This document shows positions 6,928-33,400 of a stretch of 38,200 bases of DNA, piece by piece; the first letter of the stretch is position 1, and each line of letters starts with the position of its first letter. The position numbers were made by a program, and so were the translations under genes. The stretch is from Escherichia phage sortregn. Location: sequence record MN850588.1. One strand, 5' to 3'. A model generated the notes under the pieces. The model was given only the letters and a program-made list of their open reading frames with translations. It was not told where the DNA came from and ran no database searches.

Positions 6928-7152
6928 ATGAAACAGACTTTACTCCCGACCAAAACAAACAAGGCTCAACTGGTTAACCCGCTGTTACTGAAACAGGCGC
7001 ACATCCTGATCGAGGTGGCGATGATTCTCCGTAATCGCCTGAAAATGTACGCCGCCGGGCCAGCAGCTACAGCAGCTTTAAAGCGCGAGGCTCGCCAGGC
7101 AGAGGACGACGCTCGCGAACTGATCCGAGGCGCTTATGGTTATCGCCCGTAA
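6928..7152 (+). CDS. hypothetical protein
   Basis: ORF 6865-7152. ATG 6928 preferred (GAGGA RBS); the upstream part overlaps the conserved non-coding element. Confidence 0.6.
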   Translation: MKQTLLPTKTNKAQLVNPLLLKQAHILIEVAMILRNRLKMYAAGPAATAALKREARQAEDDARELIRGAYGYRP

Positions 7153-7411
7153 GACTTCGCGCCGGGAGTTATGGGAGGCGGCGCAAGCCGCCGAACTGGA
7201 CGGCATGATCAGCGCAGTCTCCCGCGTGTTCGGCAAGGAGGCGATCGCCGACATATCGATCGAGACGCCGGACGGCGAGATGTACCTGAACAACCCGGAC
7301 CCGCACCACTGGCGCGTCGTGCCTGGGACTAAAGGCGGAAAGAACGCTCTCAAAGACGCGATCGCCGACACCAAAAACCGGAAGCACCTCAAAGGGGGAT
7401 CTCGTGGGTAA
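7136..7411 (+). CDS. hypothetical protein
   Basis: 91 aa; GAGG 5 nt upstream of ATG; 17-nt overlap with the upstream gene. Confidence 0.6.
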   Translation: MVIARKTSRRELWEAAQAAELDGMISAVSRVFGKEAIADISIETPDGEMYLNNPDPHHWRVVPGTKGGKNALKDAIADTKNRKHLKGGSRG

Positions 7412-7796
7412 AGTAACAGCGAAGATTATCGGATGGACTGACGAGCAGGACGCGGAACTGGTTCGCCTGGCTGGAACCATGCCAGCGCCGGACCTGGCGA
7501 AGAAGATAAAACGCAACTTCCGCCAGATGCAGGTCCAGGCGTCGAAGCTGGGGATCTCCCTGGCGTACCGCAGGACGTACACGCAATGGACAGCGGAGGA
7601 GGACCGGAAGCTGGTCCGCTTCTGGGAGGATAAACTGACCCCGGAGGACGTGGTGGAGATCGCAGAGACTACGGGGATCTATGAAGTGACCCGCGACGAA
7701 CTGACACACGAGCACGTCGCGACCTGGCTCGACAAATCGCGCCCGGCAGTACGCGGACGCCTGGCAAAATTCAAGAAAGAGGGGAAAATAGCATGA
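7404..7796 (+). CDS. tandem Myb/SANT- or GcrA-like HTH DNA-binding protein
   Basis: 130 aa; GTG start with AAGGGGG RBS. Two repeats: WTDEQDAELVRLAG..LAKKIKRNFRQMQVQASKLGISL and WTAEEDRKLVRFWE..SRPAVRGRLAKF. The first resembles the GcrA N-terminus (WTDERV..L..LW..GLSASQIA..LGGVTRNAVIGKVHRLGLS) as recalled. Confidence 0.6.
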   Translation: MGKVTAKIIGWTDEQDAELVRLAGTMPAPDLAKKIKRNFRQMQVQASKLGISLAYRRTYTQWTAEEDRKLVRFWEDKLTPEDVVEIAETTGIYEVTRDELTHEHVATWLDKSRPAVRGRLAKFKKEGKIA

Positions 7797-7894
7797 CTGA
7801 CTTACGCGGAAGTAAATACGTTATATGGGGCGTAATCGCAGCCAGCGCCGCGCTGTGGGCTTTAATCGGTTTTGGCGTGTCGATGGTACTCTAA
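7793..7894 (+). CDS. small membrane protein (33 aa)
   Basis: Below the ORF-track cutoff. ATGA overlap with the upstream stop. MTDLRGSKYVIWGVIAASAALWALIGFGVSMVL has one TM helix. Followed by a terminator. Confidence 0.5.
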   Translation: MTDLRGSKYVIWGVIAASAALWALIGFGVSMVL

Positions 7895-7902
7895 AAAAAA
7901 GG

Positions 7903-7930
7903 GCCGCTTAAAAAGCGGCTCCTTTCGTTT
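7903..7930 (+). terminator. rho-independent terminator ending the rightward early operon
   Basis: GCCGCTT-AAA-AAGCGGC stem-loop followed by TCCTTTCGTTT, and preceded by an A8 run. Confidence 0.7.
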
Positions 7931-7990
7931 AAACGCCAGAGATGATCTACAATGCCCCGGCAGTATAACCAAACAAGAGAGGACCCGACA

Positions 7991-8788
7991 ATGGGGAATT
8001 TTTGGACCTACCACGAGAACACCCAGCGCGGCGGGATCGAACTGGGCCGAGTAATCGACCCGGCGAAAGCCTCGCGCCCGGTGATCTACCTAGAATCAGA
8101 TCCGCCAGGTCTGGACGCGGCGAAGGTTTCCGCCTTCATGCCGTACTACGTTTACACTCCGATGTCCTTCACTCAGGACTTGCCGGGAGTGGCTGGTGGC
8201 GATGCCGCCGCGACCTTCGTCCCTGGGGGGAGCACGTTCTCCGCGACGGTCGAAGTCGCCGGAGGTCAAGCGCCGTTTACTTATCAGTGGTACAAGTTTA
8301 GCGGCGGAGTCGGAACGGCGATCACGCTGGCGCAGAACGCCACGGCCCAGTCGAAGGTATTCCAGATCACCAACTACACCGCAGCGGCTCAACCCGGATC
8401 CGGTAACGGTGATTGGTATGTTGTCGTAACCGACGCGACCGGGGCCACGCTCCAGTCTCAGCGCATCCGCACGAAACAGGCGATCGCCTACTCCGTCAAC
8501 CTACCGACGACCGACACCTGGACCGTCGGGACCGCCGACGCCTTAACCGTCACCGTGAACGCGGCTACGGGCCTTGCGCCGTATACTCATGAATGGTTTA
8601 AGGATGGCGTTTCTCAGGGGCCGGGGACGTCGAGCGGGACGGGGAACGCGACCTCCACGCTATCGAAGGCAAGCCCGGCAGCGGGCGACGCTGGCGTGTA
8701 TTATTGCATTTCCACCAGCGCCAACACGAACCCGCCGAAAACCATCCAGAGCATTTCTTGCACTGTAACCGTTAACCCGGCAGCATAA
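7991..8788 (+). CDS. Ig-like domain protein (two I-set-like repeats)
   Basis: Start ATG 7991 preferred (AGAGAGGA RBS; the 7952 ATG has no RBS). Ig-like repeats ..APFTYQWYKF..GDWYVVVTDATG.. and ..APYTHEWFKDG..DAGVYYCISTS..CTVTV. Confidence 0.75.
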   Translation: MGNFWTYHENTQRGGIELGRVIDPAKASRPVIYLESDPPGLDAAKVSAFMPYYVYTPMSFTQDLPGVAGGDAAATFVPGGSTFSATVEVAGGQAPFTYQWYKFSGGVGTAITLAQNATAQSKVFQITNYTAAAQPGSGNGDWYVVVTDATGATLQSQRIRTKQAIAYSVNLPTTDTWTVGTADALTVTVNAATGLAPYTHEWFKDGVSQGPGTSSGTGNATSTLSKASPAAGDAGVYYCISTSANTNPPKTIQSISCTVTVNPAA

Positions 8789-8798
8789 GGAGCCGACT

Positions 8799-9011
8799 AT
8801 GTTTTATCACTCGCAGGACCTACCGGAGCGCGGCGGCGTTCTACTGACGAAGATCGCGGATCCTGGTTCGGCCCAGGTACAAGCGCGGGATCTGGTCTGG
8901 CTGGATGCTGACCCGACGGGCGGATCGTGGGAGCCACTCCCGGCAGTGTTCGACAAGGTGGACGCCTCCGGGCTGGAGAATCACCTCTCCTACTTCATCC
9001 CATACGCATAA
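8799..9011 (+). CDS. short paralogue of the N-terminal domain of the upstream Ig protein
   Basis: 70 aa; AAGGAG RBS. FYHSQDLPERGGVLLTKIADP..LDADPTGG parallels FWTYHENTQRGGIELGRVIDP..LESDPPG. C-terminal SYFIPYA parallels FMPYYVY. Confidence 0.7.
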   Translation: MFYHSQDLPERGGVLLTKIADPGSAQVQARDLVWLDADPTGGSWEPLPAVFDKVDASGLENHLSYFIPYA

Positions 9012-9038
9012 AAAAGGGGGCCAATCGGCCCCCTGTTT
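9010..9038. terminator. bidirectional terminator between convergent Ig cassette and lysis genes
   Basis: A-run, GGGGGCC-AATC-GGCCCCC, then TGTTT. Lies between the stop at 9011 (+) and the stop at 9037 (-). Confidence 0.8.
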
Positions 9039-9558
9039 ACTGCTGACGCTCCACGGCGTCGTAATTCACTTCGCAGACCTCCCCGGCGGTGATCGCCTTC
9101 TCCGCTATATCAGCATACCGTCGAGCAGCTTCTCCAGTCCCTCGGAGCAAGTCGGAATACATTCGGGCGGTCTTTTCCCCTGACGCCCTTCCGAGGGCAG
9201 CGGTCTGATCAGCGGCTTCGCGTCTGGCGTTCTCTTTGGCGGCTCGTTCGAGCAACCGATCAAGGGCAGCACCAGCAGCAGCAGAAGCGGCGCGAGCTTT
9301 TGCGGCCTGTTCGTTCGCATATTTTACGGACTCCTCGCGGGCAATGGCCCGGCCTTGTTCAATGATACGGGCGGCGGCTTGTGCGTTCGCTTCCTGGGTG
9401 GATTCCTTCGCGATCCGAGCATTGTCGCGAGCGGTCCAGCCCCGGTCCGTCCAGGCCGAGCCAGCCCAGAAAGATCCCCCCAGCGCCAGCAGCACGACAA
9501 CGACGAGCAGCAGCGATCGCCAGTGAGTCGAAAGGAACACGCGGAGGGCGGCGATCAT
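9037..9558 (-). CDS. Rz: i-spanin (Rz-like)
   Basis: 173 aa. N-terminal TM (WRSLLLVVVVLLALGG), Ala/Glu/Arg-rich coiled-coil periplasmic part. ATGA overlap with the endolysin stop. Contains the embedded Rz1-like ORF. Confidence 0.85.
   Translation of the reverse strand: MIAALRVFLSTHWRSLLLVVVVLLALGGSFWAGSAWTDRGWTARDNARIAKESTQEANAQAAARIIEQGRAIAREESVKYANEQAAKARAASAAAGAALDRLLERAAKENARREAADQTAALGRASGEKTARMYSDLLRGTGEAARRYADIAEKAITAGEVCEVNYDAVERQQ
9105..9320 (-). CDS. Rz1: o-spanin (Rz1-like lipoprotein), embedded in the i-spanin gene
   Basis: 71 aa in the +1 frame inside Rz. Signal peptide with lipobox LPLIGC, then a Pro-rich mature part (EPPKRTPDAKPLIRPLP). Confidence 0.85.
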   Translation of the reverse strand: MRTNRPQKLAPLLLLLVLPLIGCSNEPPKRTPDAKPLIRPLPSEGRQGKRPPECIPTCSEGLEKLLDGMLI

Positions 9559-10034
9559 TCGTCTGCAACCTTACCGCCAGCGGCGCGGAAGTAGCCCAGG
9601 AAGTCCTCGAAAGTCTCCGTTCGCTGACCGTATGGGGAGCCAGGCAGGGAGGCCCAGATGGTCCGGCATTTCTTCACGGCGTCCTTGATCCGGCCCGCGT
9701 CGATGTCGTCCAGCGCTTTACGCTCGCTGATCTGCTGGAGGGCGATCTGGTCCTGTGATGCCGGAGAGAAGTCCGGGAGTCCAAGCTGTTTTTTGTACAC
9801 GTCATAATAGCGGCTTAACAACTGGTAGCGCCCGGCGGCGGTTGAATTGATCCCCAGCTTCGGCAGCTTTACGAGGCGGTTCGGATGCTTCGAGTAGTCG
9901 CTGAACAGGGAGCCGCCCACGATCACGTCGTAGCCGTGATTGCGCGTCTGCTGGCGTCCGTTGTCTGTTCCCTCGCCTACCGCGATCGCGTCCAGGAATG
10001 CCTTACGCTGGGGCGTGACTTCAAATTTTGCCAT
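9555..10034 (-). CDS. endolysin, lambda R-type lytic transglycosylase
   Basis: 159 aa, near-collinear with lambda R as recalled: QRKAFLDAIAVGEGTDNGRQQTRNHGYDVIVGG, AAGRYQLLSR, IWASLPG. Confidence 0.95.
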   Translation of the reverse strand: MAKFEVTPQRKAFLDAIAVGEGTDNGRQQTRNHGYDVIVGGSLFSDYSKHPNRLVKLPKLGINSTAAGRYQLLSRYYDVYKKQLGLPDFSPASQDQIALQQISERKALDDIDAGRIKDAVKKCRTIWASLPGSPYGQRTETFEDFLGYFRAAGGKVADE

Positions 10035-25051: not shown

Positions 25052-25070
25052 CCTATCAAGAGGATCTACC

Positions 25071-25589
25071 ATGTCACGCAATAAGACCGCGATCGCCGTA
25101 GCTATGACCATGATTTACACCCGCCCCGCTATCATCGCCGGGGAAAATATCAAAGGTCTGGAAGTCCTGACCCGCGACCACACGGACGGCCCCTACGCCC
25201 GCGCCTCGTTCCCGGATGAAGAAGCCGCCGAGCGTCTGGAGTCTGGCTTCTGGGTGGATCATCCGGTCAAACTCTCCACGCTGGACAAGGCGATCGCCGA
25301 AGCCGCTCAGAAGGAAGCGGAGCAGGACAAAAAGGACGCCGACAACCAGAAAGCCGAGCAGGTGAAGAAGGAGCAGGACGAGAAGGTGGAAGATAAGGCC
25401 CCAGAATCGACCGCTACGGCCTCCGAGCAGAAAGACGACCCGAAGGCCACCGAAGCGGAAAAAGCCGCAGAGAGCGGCGCAGAGGCTCAGGAATCCACCC
25501 AGGAAGCGAAGGCCGACGAATCCAAGCCGAAAGACGGCGAGAAGGTAGACGGCGCGAAAGTTCCGACTGATAAGAAGGCGAAGAAATAA
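25071..25589 (+). CDS. hypothetical protein with Lys/Glu/Ala-rich disordered tail
   Basis: ORF 24948-25589; ATG 25071 preferred (AGAGGA RBS, downstream of terminator and promoter). 172 aa: a folded N-terminal ~75 aa, then a polyampholyte tail ending KKAKK. Confidence 0.6.
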   Translation: MSRNKTAIAVAMTMIYTRPAIIAGENIKGLEVLTRDHTDGPYARASFPDEEAAERLESGFWVDHPVKLSTLDKAIAEAAQKEAEQDKKDADNQKAEQVKKEQDEKVEDKAPESTATASEQKDDPKATEAEKAAESGAEAQESTQEAKADESKPKDGEKVDGAKVPTDKKAKK

Positions 25590-30464: not shown

Positions 30465-33400
30465 ATGGCGAACATCTTCGACCAATTTGATCAGAACATG
30501 CCGAAAAATGCGACGGCGCTCCCTAATCAGATTCCAAACCAACCCGGATCCACTGGATCCGGTTATGCTGATCTGGTGGAGAGTGCCGGGGCGAAGTGGG
30601 GGATCCCTGCTGGCCTCATGACCCAATTAGTGGGGAAAGAGTCCAGCGGCAACCCGTCCGCCGTCTCCTCGAAAGGCGCAACCGGGCTAACTCAGGTTAT
30701 GCGCGGGACCGCCGAGGATATGGGCTACAACTGGGACGCGCTGAAAAACGATCCAGCATTACAGGCAGACGCGGGGGCGCAGTACCTTTCCCGCATGTAT
30801 CAGAGGTATGGAGACTGGGGGACCGCTCTCCAGGCTTACCATGACGGCCCCGGCAACGTAGACAAACAACTGGCGGGACAGGCAGAACCTGGCCCGGAGG
30901 GGCGTCAATATGTGGATGATCGGTTTAATCAATGGACTGGGCGAGGCGCTGGCGACAATGGCAGCGGCGAACCTACTCAATACGCAACCAGCGCACGATC
31001 TCCGAGTGCTGGCGGTAATGTTTTCGACCAATTCGGGGACTACCAACCCCCAGCAGCAGCCGCAGCCGACGGAGCCGGACCAACCGGAGCCGATCAACAA
31101 GTCGCAGCCGTCGCCGCTGGCAATGCACCTAATCAAGCGGGATCTGATGGCGCACAAGGGGCGGCAGCGCCGAACGGTAACGGAGTCCAGAGCGGAGCTA
31201 ATCAGCCCGGACAAACCGATCCAAACGAAGAAGCCGCCCGAAACTGGGAACAGTTAGGCCAGACCGTTCTCCATTCGCTGGATCAGGGCGCTCGCGGCGT
31301 GGCTCAGACGGGGATCGACCTGCTGAACACGCCGATCTCGCTGGCGAACATGATCTCCAATGCCGTGACCGATGCGGGCAAATGGGCCGGAGTCGTGGAC
31401 CAGGACACCCAAGCGCCGACCATCACGCCTGGGGGGATCCCTGGTCTCGCGCCTACCGACAAATACGCGCAGATCGGGACCGTGATCGGGGATATGCTCG
31501 CGCCACTGCCTGGCCCTCGTAAGGCTCAGGCGGCGACCGAACTCCTCGGACTGGTCCGTGAATCGCCGGACGTGGCTACCTTCTCGACTCGCCTCGCTGA
31601 TGCCGTGCAGAACTGGATCGCGGCTCCGGCGGCTCGTGCCGTTCCCGGCGCGGTGGCCGCTGGACGTGGGGACCCGGAGGAGACGCTGACGAACATCGCG
31701 TTAGCTCCCGCTGGCGAGGCTGTGGGCCGCGCTGTTATCGGTGGCGCTGGTAGGCTGTGGAACGCTCTCCGGGGCGAAGCTGGGGCCGCTGGTGGCGCTG
31801 GTGCAGATGCAGCGGCAGACGCCGCAAGATCCACCCAGGCGTCCGAGGCGGGCATTTCCGACGCGGTGGCTCGTGACGCGAGCAAGTTCCGACTGACGCC
31901 GGATCGCACTGTGCAGGGCGCGAACGGTGAAACCCTCCGCGCTTCTGACGATGCGATCGATCTGGCGAACATGGCGGACGTGGACAAGAAGGTCCTCAAG
32001 ACGGCCCGCGATCTGGGACTGGAGGACCAACTGACCCCGGCGGCTTATGCGCGTGACACCAATTTCCGCAGCACGATCCAGCAGCTTGTAAGCCGTAAAG
32101 GTTCCAACCTGGAGACGCAGCAGCTAAACGGGATCGCCCGCTTAGGCGAGAAAGCCGACGAGCTGATCGACAGCATGAGCAGCATGAACGCGCAGACCAT
32201 TGATCAGGCGTTTACCGCCCGCACTCGTGCAGTGATCGACGGACTGGGCGACGAGGCGGAGAAGGCTTATAACGCGATCGCGGCGAAGATCCCGCGTAAC
32301 GCCGAAGTAAGGCCGGACAGTACCGTGGACTATCTGACGGCGAAAGCCGACGAGTTAGGCGGCGACGCGTACCTGTCAACGGCAGAGCGTAAGGCGCTGG
32401 ACTGGATGGCTCCGAAGCCTGGCAAGGTGGACCCTGTGACGGGCCTCCCGGATCAGGACGTGGCGACGATCCCGACTTACTCCCGACTGGACACGCTTCG
32501 TAAGCAGGTAGGCCAGGCGCTCAATAAAAAATCCGGCCCGTTCAAGGACGAGGAGACGGGAGCGCTTAAACAGCTTTACGCCCGCCTGACGGACGACCAG
32601 GAGAAAGTCGCGGCCCAGTACGGCGCGGCGGACGACTGGAACGTGGCTAAACAGCTTGTTAAACGCCGTAAGGACCTGGAGACGATCGCCCAGGACGCGC
32701 TCGGAAAGAACCTTACCGACTCGATCACCGGGAAAGTGCAGAACGCGATCCTGAATCTGGGTAAAAAGGGCGGCAGCGCGAAGGACTGGGACCGTCTGAT
32801 GGCTGCAACCCCGGAGAGCCTGAAACAGGACGTAGTGGCTAACGCGCTGGAGCGTACCCTGGGCGCACGTAGCGCCCGCGATACCTTCGCGATCCCCGGC
32901 TTCGTGGACTGGTACAAGACCGCCCAGGCAAACGGGACGTTAGGCAACGTCATGAAGCATTTACCCCGCGATCAGCGTGTGCGCCTGATGCAGGTTTACC
33001 GCGTGGCGAACGCCATCGACCGGGCGAAACGCTTTACCACGACGACGGGATCGATCTCCGACTTCGTGAAGCGCTTCGACGATCCTAGCGCTGGCGGCGT
33101 CTTGTCCAAGCTGTACGGCGCGGCGGGCTGGCTGGGTAAACATGCGGCGGCGTTCTATGCAGCAGGTCCGGCGGGTAATGCGGCCCTCTCAGCGGCTCAG
33201 GCAGCGCGGGGCGCTCGCGTCCCTCGTTCGGTGCTGGCGGACAATTTGCTTTCGTCCACGAACTTCTCCAAACTTATGCAAGCCGCAGCCGCGCAGAGTT
33301 CCGGGAAGCTAACCCCAGCGGGCCGGACGTTCGTCCGCGAGGCCGAGGAAGCGGCGGCAAACTCCCCAGAGTGGCGGGCCTTGTATGAGGCATTCACCCC

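What the first reader, a model, noticed from the sequence alone, without database searches (positions are those of the whole stretch)
7931..9011. Terminator-bounded cassette: Ig-domain protein plus a short paralogue of its N-terminal domain
The two genes sit between the early-operon terminator (7903-7930) and the bidirectional terminator (9010-9038), outside the virion module. The first has a ~75-aa N-terminal domain followed by two Ig-like repeats (YQWYKF..., HEWFKDG...YYC). The second (70 aa, strong RBS) is a stand-alone copy of that N-terminal domain (YH..RGG..L..I.DP...L..DP.G...PY). Phage Ig domains are usually displayed on virions. Here the shared domain could be a virion- or receptor-docking module made in Ig-bearing and bare versions that compete. 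Alternatively it is a moron acting at the cell surface.
Basis: partly seen in the sequence, partly recalled or inferred. Interest (0 to 1): 0.55.

Follow-up and report, generated by a model that had tools for sequence, protein, structure and literature searches.

The report
Ig-display protein with bare anchor partner
This phage carries a swappable two-gene unit, an immunoglobulin-like surface-display protein followed by a 70-residue stand-alone copy of its N-terminal domain; the two genes always travel together, which suggests a two-part docking device, but nobody has yet shown that either protein is in the virus particle.

Summary
The window is Escherichia phage sortregn (Murrayvirus, 99.7% identical to Salmonella phage Lumpael here). 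Between two hairpin terminators lie a 265-aa protein (true start 7991, not 7952) and a 70-aa protein (8799-9011). The larger has a roughly 62-aa beta-rich N-domain, a linker and two Ig-like domains. The 70-aa protein is a paralogue of that N-domain (hhalign probability 99%, E 2.7e-18 over residues 1-41) and is under purifying selection (dN/dS about 0.2).

New findings:
- The N-domain family is tiny: 14 clusters among 1.84 billion representatives. It has no Pfam, PHROG or solved-structure relative.
- It splits into three types: U (Ig protein alone), P (Ig protein always followed by a short gene) and S (the short protein).
- In the loci collected, every P gene has an S gene 9-18 nt downstream, and no U gene has one.
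- About 75-kb phages carry near-identical Ig arrays on an unrelated N-domain, joined at the same linker.
- Close relatives swap exactly the coding block 7968-9005.

The best reading is a virion-surface Ig-display (Hoc/pb10-like) protein whose anchor works with a bare paralogous partner. Virion location and binding partner are inferred, not shown. This is a new variant of a known kind, of moderate interest.

The parts
7901..7929 (.). Left boundary: hairpin terminator. The stem is 7901-7921 with a T-rich tail on the + strand; it reads as a terminator on the - strand too, with a T8 run.
   Evidence: Scan. The sequence is conserved in IME_EC2, Sortsne, L015 and L018.
7940..7956 (+). Conserved non-coding element AGAGATGATCTACAATGCC. 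It contains a -10-like TACAAT at 7948-7953 and is a candidate promoter or leader of the cassette. DNA homology with relatives that carry a different cassette ends at about 7956-7969.
   Evidence: Upstream alignment by eye and blastn breakpoints. No good -35 was found, so promoter function is inferred only.
7991..8788 (+). Ig-display protein, 265 aa (sortregn_13 / Lumpael gp25). SD AGAGAGGA lies at 7976-7983. The annotated alternative start at 7952 is probably not used.
7991..8176 (+). N-terminal 'P-type' anchor domain (aa 1-62). It is predicted beta-rich: strands 4-10, 15-21, 31-33, 47-51 and 59-62. It is followed by the conserved linker MSFTQDLPG.
   Evidence: AF2 model with pLDDT about 80 in this part; alignments; hhalign.
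8213..8479 (+). Ig-like domain 1 (approximately aa 75-163; motif GGxAPFTYQWYK).
   Evidence: Pfam SprB/Ig_3, AF2, and alignment to N4 gp17 (9e99_J) residues 106-181.
8489..8776 (+). Ig-like domain 2 (approximately aa 167-262; HEWFKDG...GVYYC).
   Evidence: Pfam Ig_3 residues 187-254 of the 278-aa form and alignment to the T5 pb10 Ig domain 5lxk.
8789..8798 (+). 10-nt spacer with SD GGAG (8789-8792) for the second gene. The two genes are in different frames, so read-through does not link them.
   Evidence: Sequence. Spacers of 9-18 nt, each with an SD, occur in all relatives.
8799..9011 (+). Bare 'S-type' anchor paralogue, 70 aa (sortregn_14 / Lumpael gp24). It carries the family-specific insertion GGSWEPLPAVFDK and a C-terminal YFIPYA.
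9015..9034 (.). Right boundary: G+C-rich hairpin between the cassette and the convergent lysis operon (Rz ends at 9037). It has a strong T-run for the - strand and a weak one for the + strand. Homology with relatives resumes at 9006-9010.

Best explanation
The cassette encodes a two-component device for displaying Ig-like domains on the outside of the virion.

The 265-aa protein is a decoration protein of the Hoc/pb10 kind. It has a small beta-rich N-terminal anchor domain, a conserved linker (PxxFTxDLPG) and two solvent-exposed Ig-like domains. The 70-aa protein is an ancient paralogue of the anchor that has no payload. I propose that the two anchors act together at the docking site. Either they form a heteromer, or they sit side by side on the same virion surface, most probably the capsid. 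In related phages a single 'U-type' anchor does this job alone. The Ig domains then give weak adhesion to glycans or mucus, or to the host surface, as proposed for other phage Ig domains.

Shown:
- gene structure, paralogy and purifying selection;
- strict P-S co-occurrence in the loci collected;
- modular exchange of anchor against Ig array;
- cassette-type replacement between conserved flanks;
- co-inheritance with the virion module.

Inferred:
- presence in the virion;
- capsid as the partner;
- physical P-S interaction;
- adhesion as the pay-off.
For: 1. Ig-display identity. PHROG 2973 at 4e-38 and Pfam Ig_3. AF2 pLDDT 92. The best solved relatives are the capsid decoration proteins N4 gp17 and T5 pb10, through the Ig domains.

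2. The anchor is a separate module. Proteins of ~75-kb phages share the linker and Ig arrays (up to 48% identity) but carry an N-domain unrelated by profile comparison; only the linker aligns.

3. Link to the virion module. Kc259 shares only virion genes, Rz and this cassette with Lumpael. In the Kc259 lineage the cassette follows the P22-type tailspike gene directly. The domain family occurs only at this locus, in 14 clusters of 1.84e9.

4. Partnership. HMM typing of all loci found every P-type gene followed by an S gene, in at least 9 distinct genomes from about 5 divergent lineages. None of at least 10 U-type loci has one. This prediction was made before and was confirmed there.

5. The pair moves as a unit into a backbone with no other similarity over 20 kb, apart from the catalytic part of the tailspike.

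6. Spacers are 9-18 nt, each with an SD.

7. S is under selection, dN/dS about 0.2.

8. An S-type anchor fused to one Ig domain occurs as the only gene at this locus in L018. The S-type domain can therefore itself be an Ig anchor.

9. Neither protein has a signal peptide or membrane segment (read from the sequence).
Against: - No virion proteomics or structure exists for any member.
- In Murrayviruses the cassette lies after the early/replication genes, not in the late operon, and its expression timing is unknown.
- No virion protein co-varies with anchor type. MCP identity is 81% for Lumpael-IME_EC2 and 73% for IME_EC2-Sortsne, although the latter two share the U type.
- The gp24 model is only moderately confident (pLDDT 74) and disagrees with the BFVD model of the same sequence (TM 0.33).
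- The P-type HMM was built from loci already known to be paired, so the typing is partly circular. U and P nevertheless separate widely: U-HMM score >=84 against <=29 bits.
Confidence: 0.42

Rival explanations
1. Dilution or competition. Both anchors bind the same virion sites independently. The bare version occupies a fraction of the sites and so sets the density of Ig arrays. This would be the gene-duplication equivalent of the programmed frameshifts that give phage structural proteins with and without an Ig extension.
For: The two share a homologous N-terminal 41 residues. The precedent of mixed plus/minus-Ig subunits made by frameshifting is described in PMC5009743. In ~75-kb phages two tandem genes share one anchor but carry 1 and 2 Ig domains, so several payload versions of one anchor can coexist in a phage.
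Against: S never accompanies U-type proteins. S and P have remained distinct subfamilies, about 35% identical, and S has a conserved insertion absent from P. That is not what one expects of two ligands of one site. The tight spacing suggests fixed stoichiometry rather than tunable competition.
Confidence: 0.22
2. The short protein is an assembly chaperone or cap for the Ig protein's anchor. It would pair transiently with the P-type N-domain in the cytoplasm, for example by beta-strand complementation, to prevent aggregation or premature binding. It would not be part of the finished virion.
For: Its position immediately downstream of a surface-protein gene is typical of phage fibre chaperones (general knowledge). 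It co-occurs strictly with the P type. It is a small open beta structure.
Against: Chaperones are not usually paralogues of their client domain. An S-type domain carries an Ig domain itself in L018, which marks it as an anchor rather than a chaperone.
Confidence: 0.15
3. The proteins are not virion proteins. The cassette would be an accessory unit acting inside the infected cell or at its surface, for example in superinfection exclusion or host manipulation, with Ig domains used for protein or glycan binding there.
For: In Murrayviruses the cassette lies outside the structural operon, between its own terminators, next to the early and lysis genes.
Against: There is no signal peptide or membrane segment. 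No PADLOC or NCBIfam match was found. The cassette is co-inherited with the virion module and follows the tailspike in Kc259. Its closest solved relatives are capsid decoration proteins.
Confidence: 0.1
4. The short ORF is a decaying remnant of a duplicated Ig-protein gene and has no function.
For: An S-type domain still fused to an Ig domain exists (P0042), which suggests the short genes arose by loss of the Ig part.
Against: dN/dS is 0.17-0.22. Length is conserved at 68-73 aa, with a conserved C-terminal YxxPY and an SD, across about 5 lineages only 40-50% identical to each other.
Confidence: 0.03

Closest known systems
T5 pb10 capsid decoration protein
   Same: The architecture matches: a small N-terminal capsid-binding domain followed by a solvent-exposed Ig-like domain. 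The Ig domain is detectably homologous (5lxk_A, E 3e-5). pb10 binds hexamer centres with high affinity (PMC5292684).
   Different: The pb10 anchor is alpha-helical, whereas this one is predicted beta-rich and has no sequence match. pb10 has one Ig domain and no bare paralogue.
T4 Hoc and 'Hoc-like head decoration' proteins (PHROG 2973)
   Same: Ig-like arrays displayed by a phage-encoded protein without a signal peptide. Member of PHROG 2973 (4e-38).
   Different: [quoted passage not shown] Here the anchor is N-terminal and unrelated. The PHROG match starts at residue 47 of the 278-aa form, so most of the N-domain is not covered.
Coliphage N4 gp17 decoration protein (PDB 9e99)
   Same: Best solved-structure match (Foldseek E 4e-10; sequence E 1.7e-5 over Ig domain 1). 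[quoted passage not shown]
   Different: All three gp17 domains are Ig-like and lie flat on the capsid. The N-domain here did not match any PDB fold. N4 has no bare paralogue.
Structural proteins made with and without an Ig-like extension by programmed frameshifting (T3 capsid, Listeria and Lactobacillus phages)
   Same: The virion receives a mixture of a structural module with and without Ig domains (PMC5009743).
   Different: Here there are two separate genes in different frames, each with its own SD and stop. The two modules are long-diverged paralogues rather than identical sequences.
Tandem anchored Ig proteins of ~75-kb podophages (L016/L017)
   Same: Two adjacent genes share one N-terminal domain and the same linker, and carry related Ig arrays, at the end of the late/lysis region.
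   Different: Their N-domain is unrelated, and both copies keep a payload (1 and 2 Ig domains). They are uncharacterised metagenomic contigs.

Membership tests
Phage Ig-like decoration proteins, broad sense (PHROG 2973 'Hoc-like head decoration') | Significant match to the family profile | tested here: met
   phrog_2973 E 4.3e-38, residues 47-278.
Phage Ig-like decoration proteins, broad sense (PHROG 2973 'Hoc-like head decoration') | One or more Ig-like beta-sandwich domains | tested here: met
   Pfam Ig_3 at 3.2e-9 with two stretches. AF2 pLDDT above 90 over residues 70-265. 596 Foldseek PDB hits at E<=1e-3, all Ig-type.
Phage Ig-like decoration proteins, broad sense (PHROG 2973 'Hoc-like head decoration') | Physically bound to the outside of the capsid | not testable with these tools
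   No proteomics or cryo-EM for Murrayvirus, Sortsnevirus, Skarprettervirus or Kc259 was found.
T4 Hoc, strict sense | [quoted passage not shown] | tested here: not met
   The non-Ig domain is N-terminal and the protein ends in the second Ig domain.
T5 pb10-like | Alpha-helical N-terminal capsid-binding domain homologous to the pb10 NTD | tested here: not met
   The predicted N-domain is all-beta. The N-domain profile finds nothing in PDB sequences at E<=10. Only the Ig domain matches 5lxk/8zvi.
N4 gp17-like | Three Ig-like domains, with DI contacting quasi-3-fold axes | tested here: inconclusive
Plus/minus-Ig isoforms by programmed frameshift | Both products come from one gene through a recoding site | tested here: not met
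   There are two ORFs with separate SD and ATG. A TAA stop and a 10-nt spacer separate them. The frames differ in sortregn, and Kc259 has a second in-frame stop.
   hhalign probability 99.0%, E 2.7e-18 over 41 columns. Exhaustive HMMER with the joint profile retrieves both kinds and almost nothing else.
Known anti-phage defence or anti-defence proteins | Match to PADLOC or NCBIfam models | tested here: not met
   0 families at E<=1 for both proteins.

The most novel reading that the evidence does not exclude
The P and S proteins form an obligate heteromeric anchor. It would have arisen by duplication and subfunctionalisation of a self-sufficient (U-type) anchor of a previously undescribed fold. 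Only one subunit carries the Ig payload. The result would be a natural two-component phage-display system whose cassette is exchanged whole between phages at conserved terminator flanks.
Probability: 0.3. Interest if true: 0.55.

Novelty: new variant of a known kind. Interest (0 to 1): 0.4.

Why it matters
[quoted passage not shown] This cassette offers a new, very small anchor domain in three natural configurations at one locus in near-identical phages: alone with payload (U), payload plus bare partner (P+S), and partner type with payload. That is a ready-made comparative system. It can be used to ask how an anchor recognises a P22-like virion, whether a homomeric anchor can evolve into a heteromeric one, and how the copy number of displayed domains is set without frameshifting. 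It would not change any general principle.

Tried and rejected
- The PDB hit 9occ 'neck whiskers protein gp24' turned out to be the Sf11 tail tube protein, matched through its Ig domain only.
- I looked for a virion protein that co-varies with anchor type and found none, comparing Lumpael, IME_EC2, Sortsne and Kc259.
- I looked for a shared late-promoter motif. The conserved element at 7940-7956 has two near-matches. One is the SD and start of the gene after the MCP gene; the other lies inside a coding region. This gives no evidence on timing.
- Homology between the 41-kb-type and 75-kb-type anchors was rejected by hhalign: only the linker aligns, probability 15%.
- IMG/VR added only one new paired locus. 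A mixed P+U alignment was too diverse for a pattern scan.
- Extending the L019 contig to 20 kb (L038) did not reach its capsid genes.
- The literature holds no proteomics or structures for this phage group.
- Rfam gave only sub-threshold chance hits over the left terminator. GC content is unremarkable.

Full report
**Identity of the window.** The region 7700-9200 is 99.7% identical to Salmonella phage Lumpael (Murrayvirus). The 38,200-bp length and the protein names returned (sortregn_13, sortregn_14) identify the window as Escherichia phage sortregn (MN850588), a wastewater coliphage listed in PMC7552041. These are about 41-kb, 59% G+C podophages with a P22-like virion module: portal, scaffold, coat, gp4-like, gp10-like, needle, ejection proteins and tailspike.

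**The observation.**
- ORFs 7952..8788 (278 aa) and 8799..9011 (70 aa) are present on the + strand.
- A hairpin with a T-rich tail lies at 7901-7929, directly after the last gene of the upstream operon (primase, Dam, RusA, methyltransferase).
- A G+C-rich hairpin at 9015-9034 separates the cassette from the convergent Rz-endolysin-holin operon. The right hairpin has a proper T-run only for the minus strand.
- The first protein matches PHROG 2973 'Hoc-like head decoration' (4e-38) and Pfam Ig_3.
- Its AF2 model (pLDDT 92) shows a small beta-rich N-domain with strands 4-10, 15-21, 31-33, 47-51 and 59-62. Two Ig sandwiches follow.
- The 70-aa protein has no Pfam, PHROG, NCBIfam or PADLOC match.
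- Pairwise BLASTP between the two gives 13/40 identities, E 2e-6.
- A profile of nine short proteins against a profile of sixteen Ig-protein N-domains gives hhalign probability 99%, E 2.7e-18 over residues 1-41.

**Start codon.** The upstream ATG 7952 is in frame in sortregn, IME_EC2 and Sortsne. It is out of frame in L015 and followed by a stop after seven codons in L018. The second ATG (7991), preceded by AGAGAGGA, is conserved everywhere. GenBank's sortregn_13 is 265 aa. I therefore place the gene at 7991-8788.

**The short gene is real.** Nei-Gojobori dN/dS is 0.18 for sortregn against L015 (79% aa identity, dS 0.77) and 0.17-0.22 among Kc259-like contigs. This is similar to the values for the neighbouring Ig gene. 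Length (68-73 aa), an SD, a 9-18-nt spacer and a C-terminal YxxPY motif are conserved.

**Distribution.**
- An exhaustive HMMER search of 1.84 billion cluster representatives with the joint N-domain profile found only 14 clusters at E<=1e-3. Eleven are clearly family members. All of these are either Ig proteins of 169-333 aa with the domain at the extreme N-terminus or stand-alone proteins of 68-73 aa.
- No solved structure contains the domain by sequence.

**Three subtypes and a strict pairing rule.** Alignment and a distance tree separate three types.
- U-type N-domains (FWHRYYRPDLLGWKVTRI...) have 71% mean identity.
- P-type N-domains have 40% mean identity.
- S-type domains, the short proteins, have 53% mean identity and carry a conserved insertion GGxWxPxPxV.

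Having seen this, I predicted that the two further P-like Ig proteins found by HMMER (P0043, P0044) would be followed by a short gene. Both are. HMM typing of every locus in hand gave the following.
- Every P-type gene is followed by an S gene. This holds for sortregn/Lumpael, L015, Kc259 and L008-L014, L019, L021, L022/23 and L028, about five lineages whose S proteins are only 40-50% identical.
- None of ten or more U-type loci has an S gene. These are IME_EC2, Sortsne, Skarpretter, Kc166B, IME279 and five metagenomic contigs.
- No genome has a second copy elsewhere.
- One contig (L018) has a single gene in which an S-type domain carries one Ig domain. The S-type domain can therefore itself serve as an Ig anchor.
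- Caveat: the P profile was built from paired loci. U and P are nonetheless separated by more than 50 bits.

**Modularity.** Ig proteins from ~75-kb phage contigs (P0031, P0034-38) share the linker PLAFTxDLPG and Ig arrays with the 41-kb phages, up to 48% identity to sortregn. Their N-domain is different. hhalign aligns only the ten linker columns, probability 15%. In those phages there are again two tandem genes sharing their own N-domain, one with one Ig domain (150 aa) and one with two (244-253 aa). So the Ig arrays are portable payloads and the N-domain is a separate, exchangeable module. Keeping two versions of one anchor with different payloads has arisen more than once.

**Cassette behaviour.** blastn of 7000-10000 against IME_EC2 shows 83% identity up to 7967, almost none across the coding block, and 87% identity from 9006. 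Sortsne and L018 break at 7956-7969 and 9006-9010. The left flank comprises the terminator and a conserved element AGAGATGATCTACAATGCC (7940-7956, with a -10-like TACAAT). The right flank is the hairpin. Close relatives thus carry U-Ig, P-Ig+S or S-Ig between the same flanks.

**Link to the virion.**
- Kosakonia phage Kc259 shares with Lumpael only the virion proteins (TerL, portal, coat, gp4-like, gp10-like, ejection proteins; 27-67% identity), Rz, the tailspike and this cassette. None of the replication or early genes gives a convincing match.
- In Kc259 and 60-odd related contigs, the cassette follows the P22-type tailspike gene (Pfam Head_binding) directly at the end of the late operon.
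- In L019/L038 the pair sits next to tailspikes of another adaptor type. That backbone has no other similarity to Lumpael over 20 kb, apart from the catalytic part of the tailspike. The pair therefore travels as a unit.
- Neither protein has a signal peptide or hydrophobic segment (direct reading).
- The closest solved relatives of the Ig part are the capsid decoration proteins N4 gp17 and T5 pb10.

**What could not be settled.**
- No virion protein co-varies with anchor type, so the docking partner is unknown. Capsid is the default by analogy, but neck or tail cannot be excluded.
- GenBank annotators call homologues 'major tail subunit', 'tail protein', 'neck whiskers' or 'Hoc-like'. All of these rest on the Ig domains.
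- Expression timing in Murrayviruses is unknown. The conserved upstream element has no convincing -35 and no informative second copy.
- I found no proteomic or structural study of this phage group.

**Interpretation.** The most economical reading is a virion-surface Ig-display protein whose anchor functions together with a bare paralogous partner (confidence 0.42).
It explains neither the exclusive association with P-type anchors nor the long-maintained divergence.
- A chaperone role (0.15) and a non-virion accessory role (0.10) remain open.
- A dead remnant is excluded by selection (0.03).

The phenomenon resembles the mixtures of structural subunits with and without an Ig extension that other phages make by programmed frameshifting (PMC5009743). 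Here it is achieved with two diverged genes. It is a new variant of a known kind, of moderate interest.

Noticed in passing
window 7940-7956 (also 25059-25075 and 31348-31364): The 17-nt element AGAGATGATCTACAATGCC between the left terminator and the Ig gene is conserved across genera (sortregn, L015, IME_EC2, Sortsne, L018), although the coding sequence downstream is replaced. Two near-matches exist in the window against 0.05 expected. One overlaps the SD and start of the gene after the coat gene; the other is inside the 1008-aa ejection-protein gene.
   Followed up: partly
window 7793-7894 (+): A 33-aa hydrophobic ORF (MTDLRGSKYVIWGVIAASAALWALIGFGVSMVL) ends the upstream operon just before the terminator. 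It is 91% conserved in IME_EC2, where the RefSeq annotation retrieved here lists no gene for it. It is probably a small membrane protein of unknown role.
   Followed up: no
window 25071-25589 (+), the gene after the coat gene: This 172-aa protein has a conserved N-terminal part (GFWVDHP.KL...IAEAA.KEA) and a long lysine/glutamate-rich low-complexity tail. It is preceded by its own terminator-like hairpin. Homologues sit at the same position in IME_EC2, Sortsne and Kc259 but diverge fast (26-69% identity). Its function is unknown, and it could be another head accessory protein.
   Followed up: partly
L016 5482-5934 and 6001-6762; L017 likewise: The ~75-kb phage contigs carry two tandem Ig-protein genes with a shared N-domain of their own (62% identical between the two) and 1 versus 2 Ig domains. 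They lie after the tailspike and lysis genes. This is a parallel case of paired anchored proteins.
   Followed up: partly
Lumpael gp47 (L007 30605-31201) vs IME_EC2 and Sortsne: The tail needle is mosaic: 27% global identity to IME_EC2 (same genus) but 59% to Sortsne (another genus). The scaffold-to-gp10 block is also less conserved (77-81%) than portal and terminase (94-95%) between Lumpael and IME_EC2.
   Followed up: no
window 9105-9320 (-), inside Rz 9037-9558: A 71-aa ORF with a lipoprotein-type signal (LLLLLVLPLIGCSNEP) is embedded out of frame in the Rz gene. It looks like an Rz1-type o-spanin and is not annotated in Lumpael.
   Followed up: no
P0003, P0015, P0017: Proteins of these lytic-looking ~41-kb phages are deposited under bacterial assemblies (an E. 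coli MAG and Enterobacter bugandensis), on contigs the size of the whole phage genome. Lumpael gp01 is annotated as a DNA_BRE_C-type recombinase. These may be contaminating phage or an episomal carrier state.
   Followed up: no
L015 6958-7200 (-): A close relative of sortregn carries a ParE_like (toxin-type) 80-aa gene in the small-gene block beyond the holin gene. The window has a different gene there.
   Followed up: no
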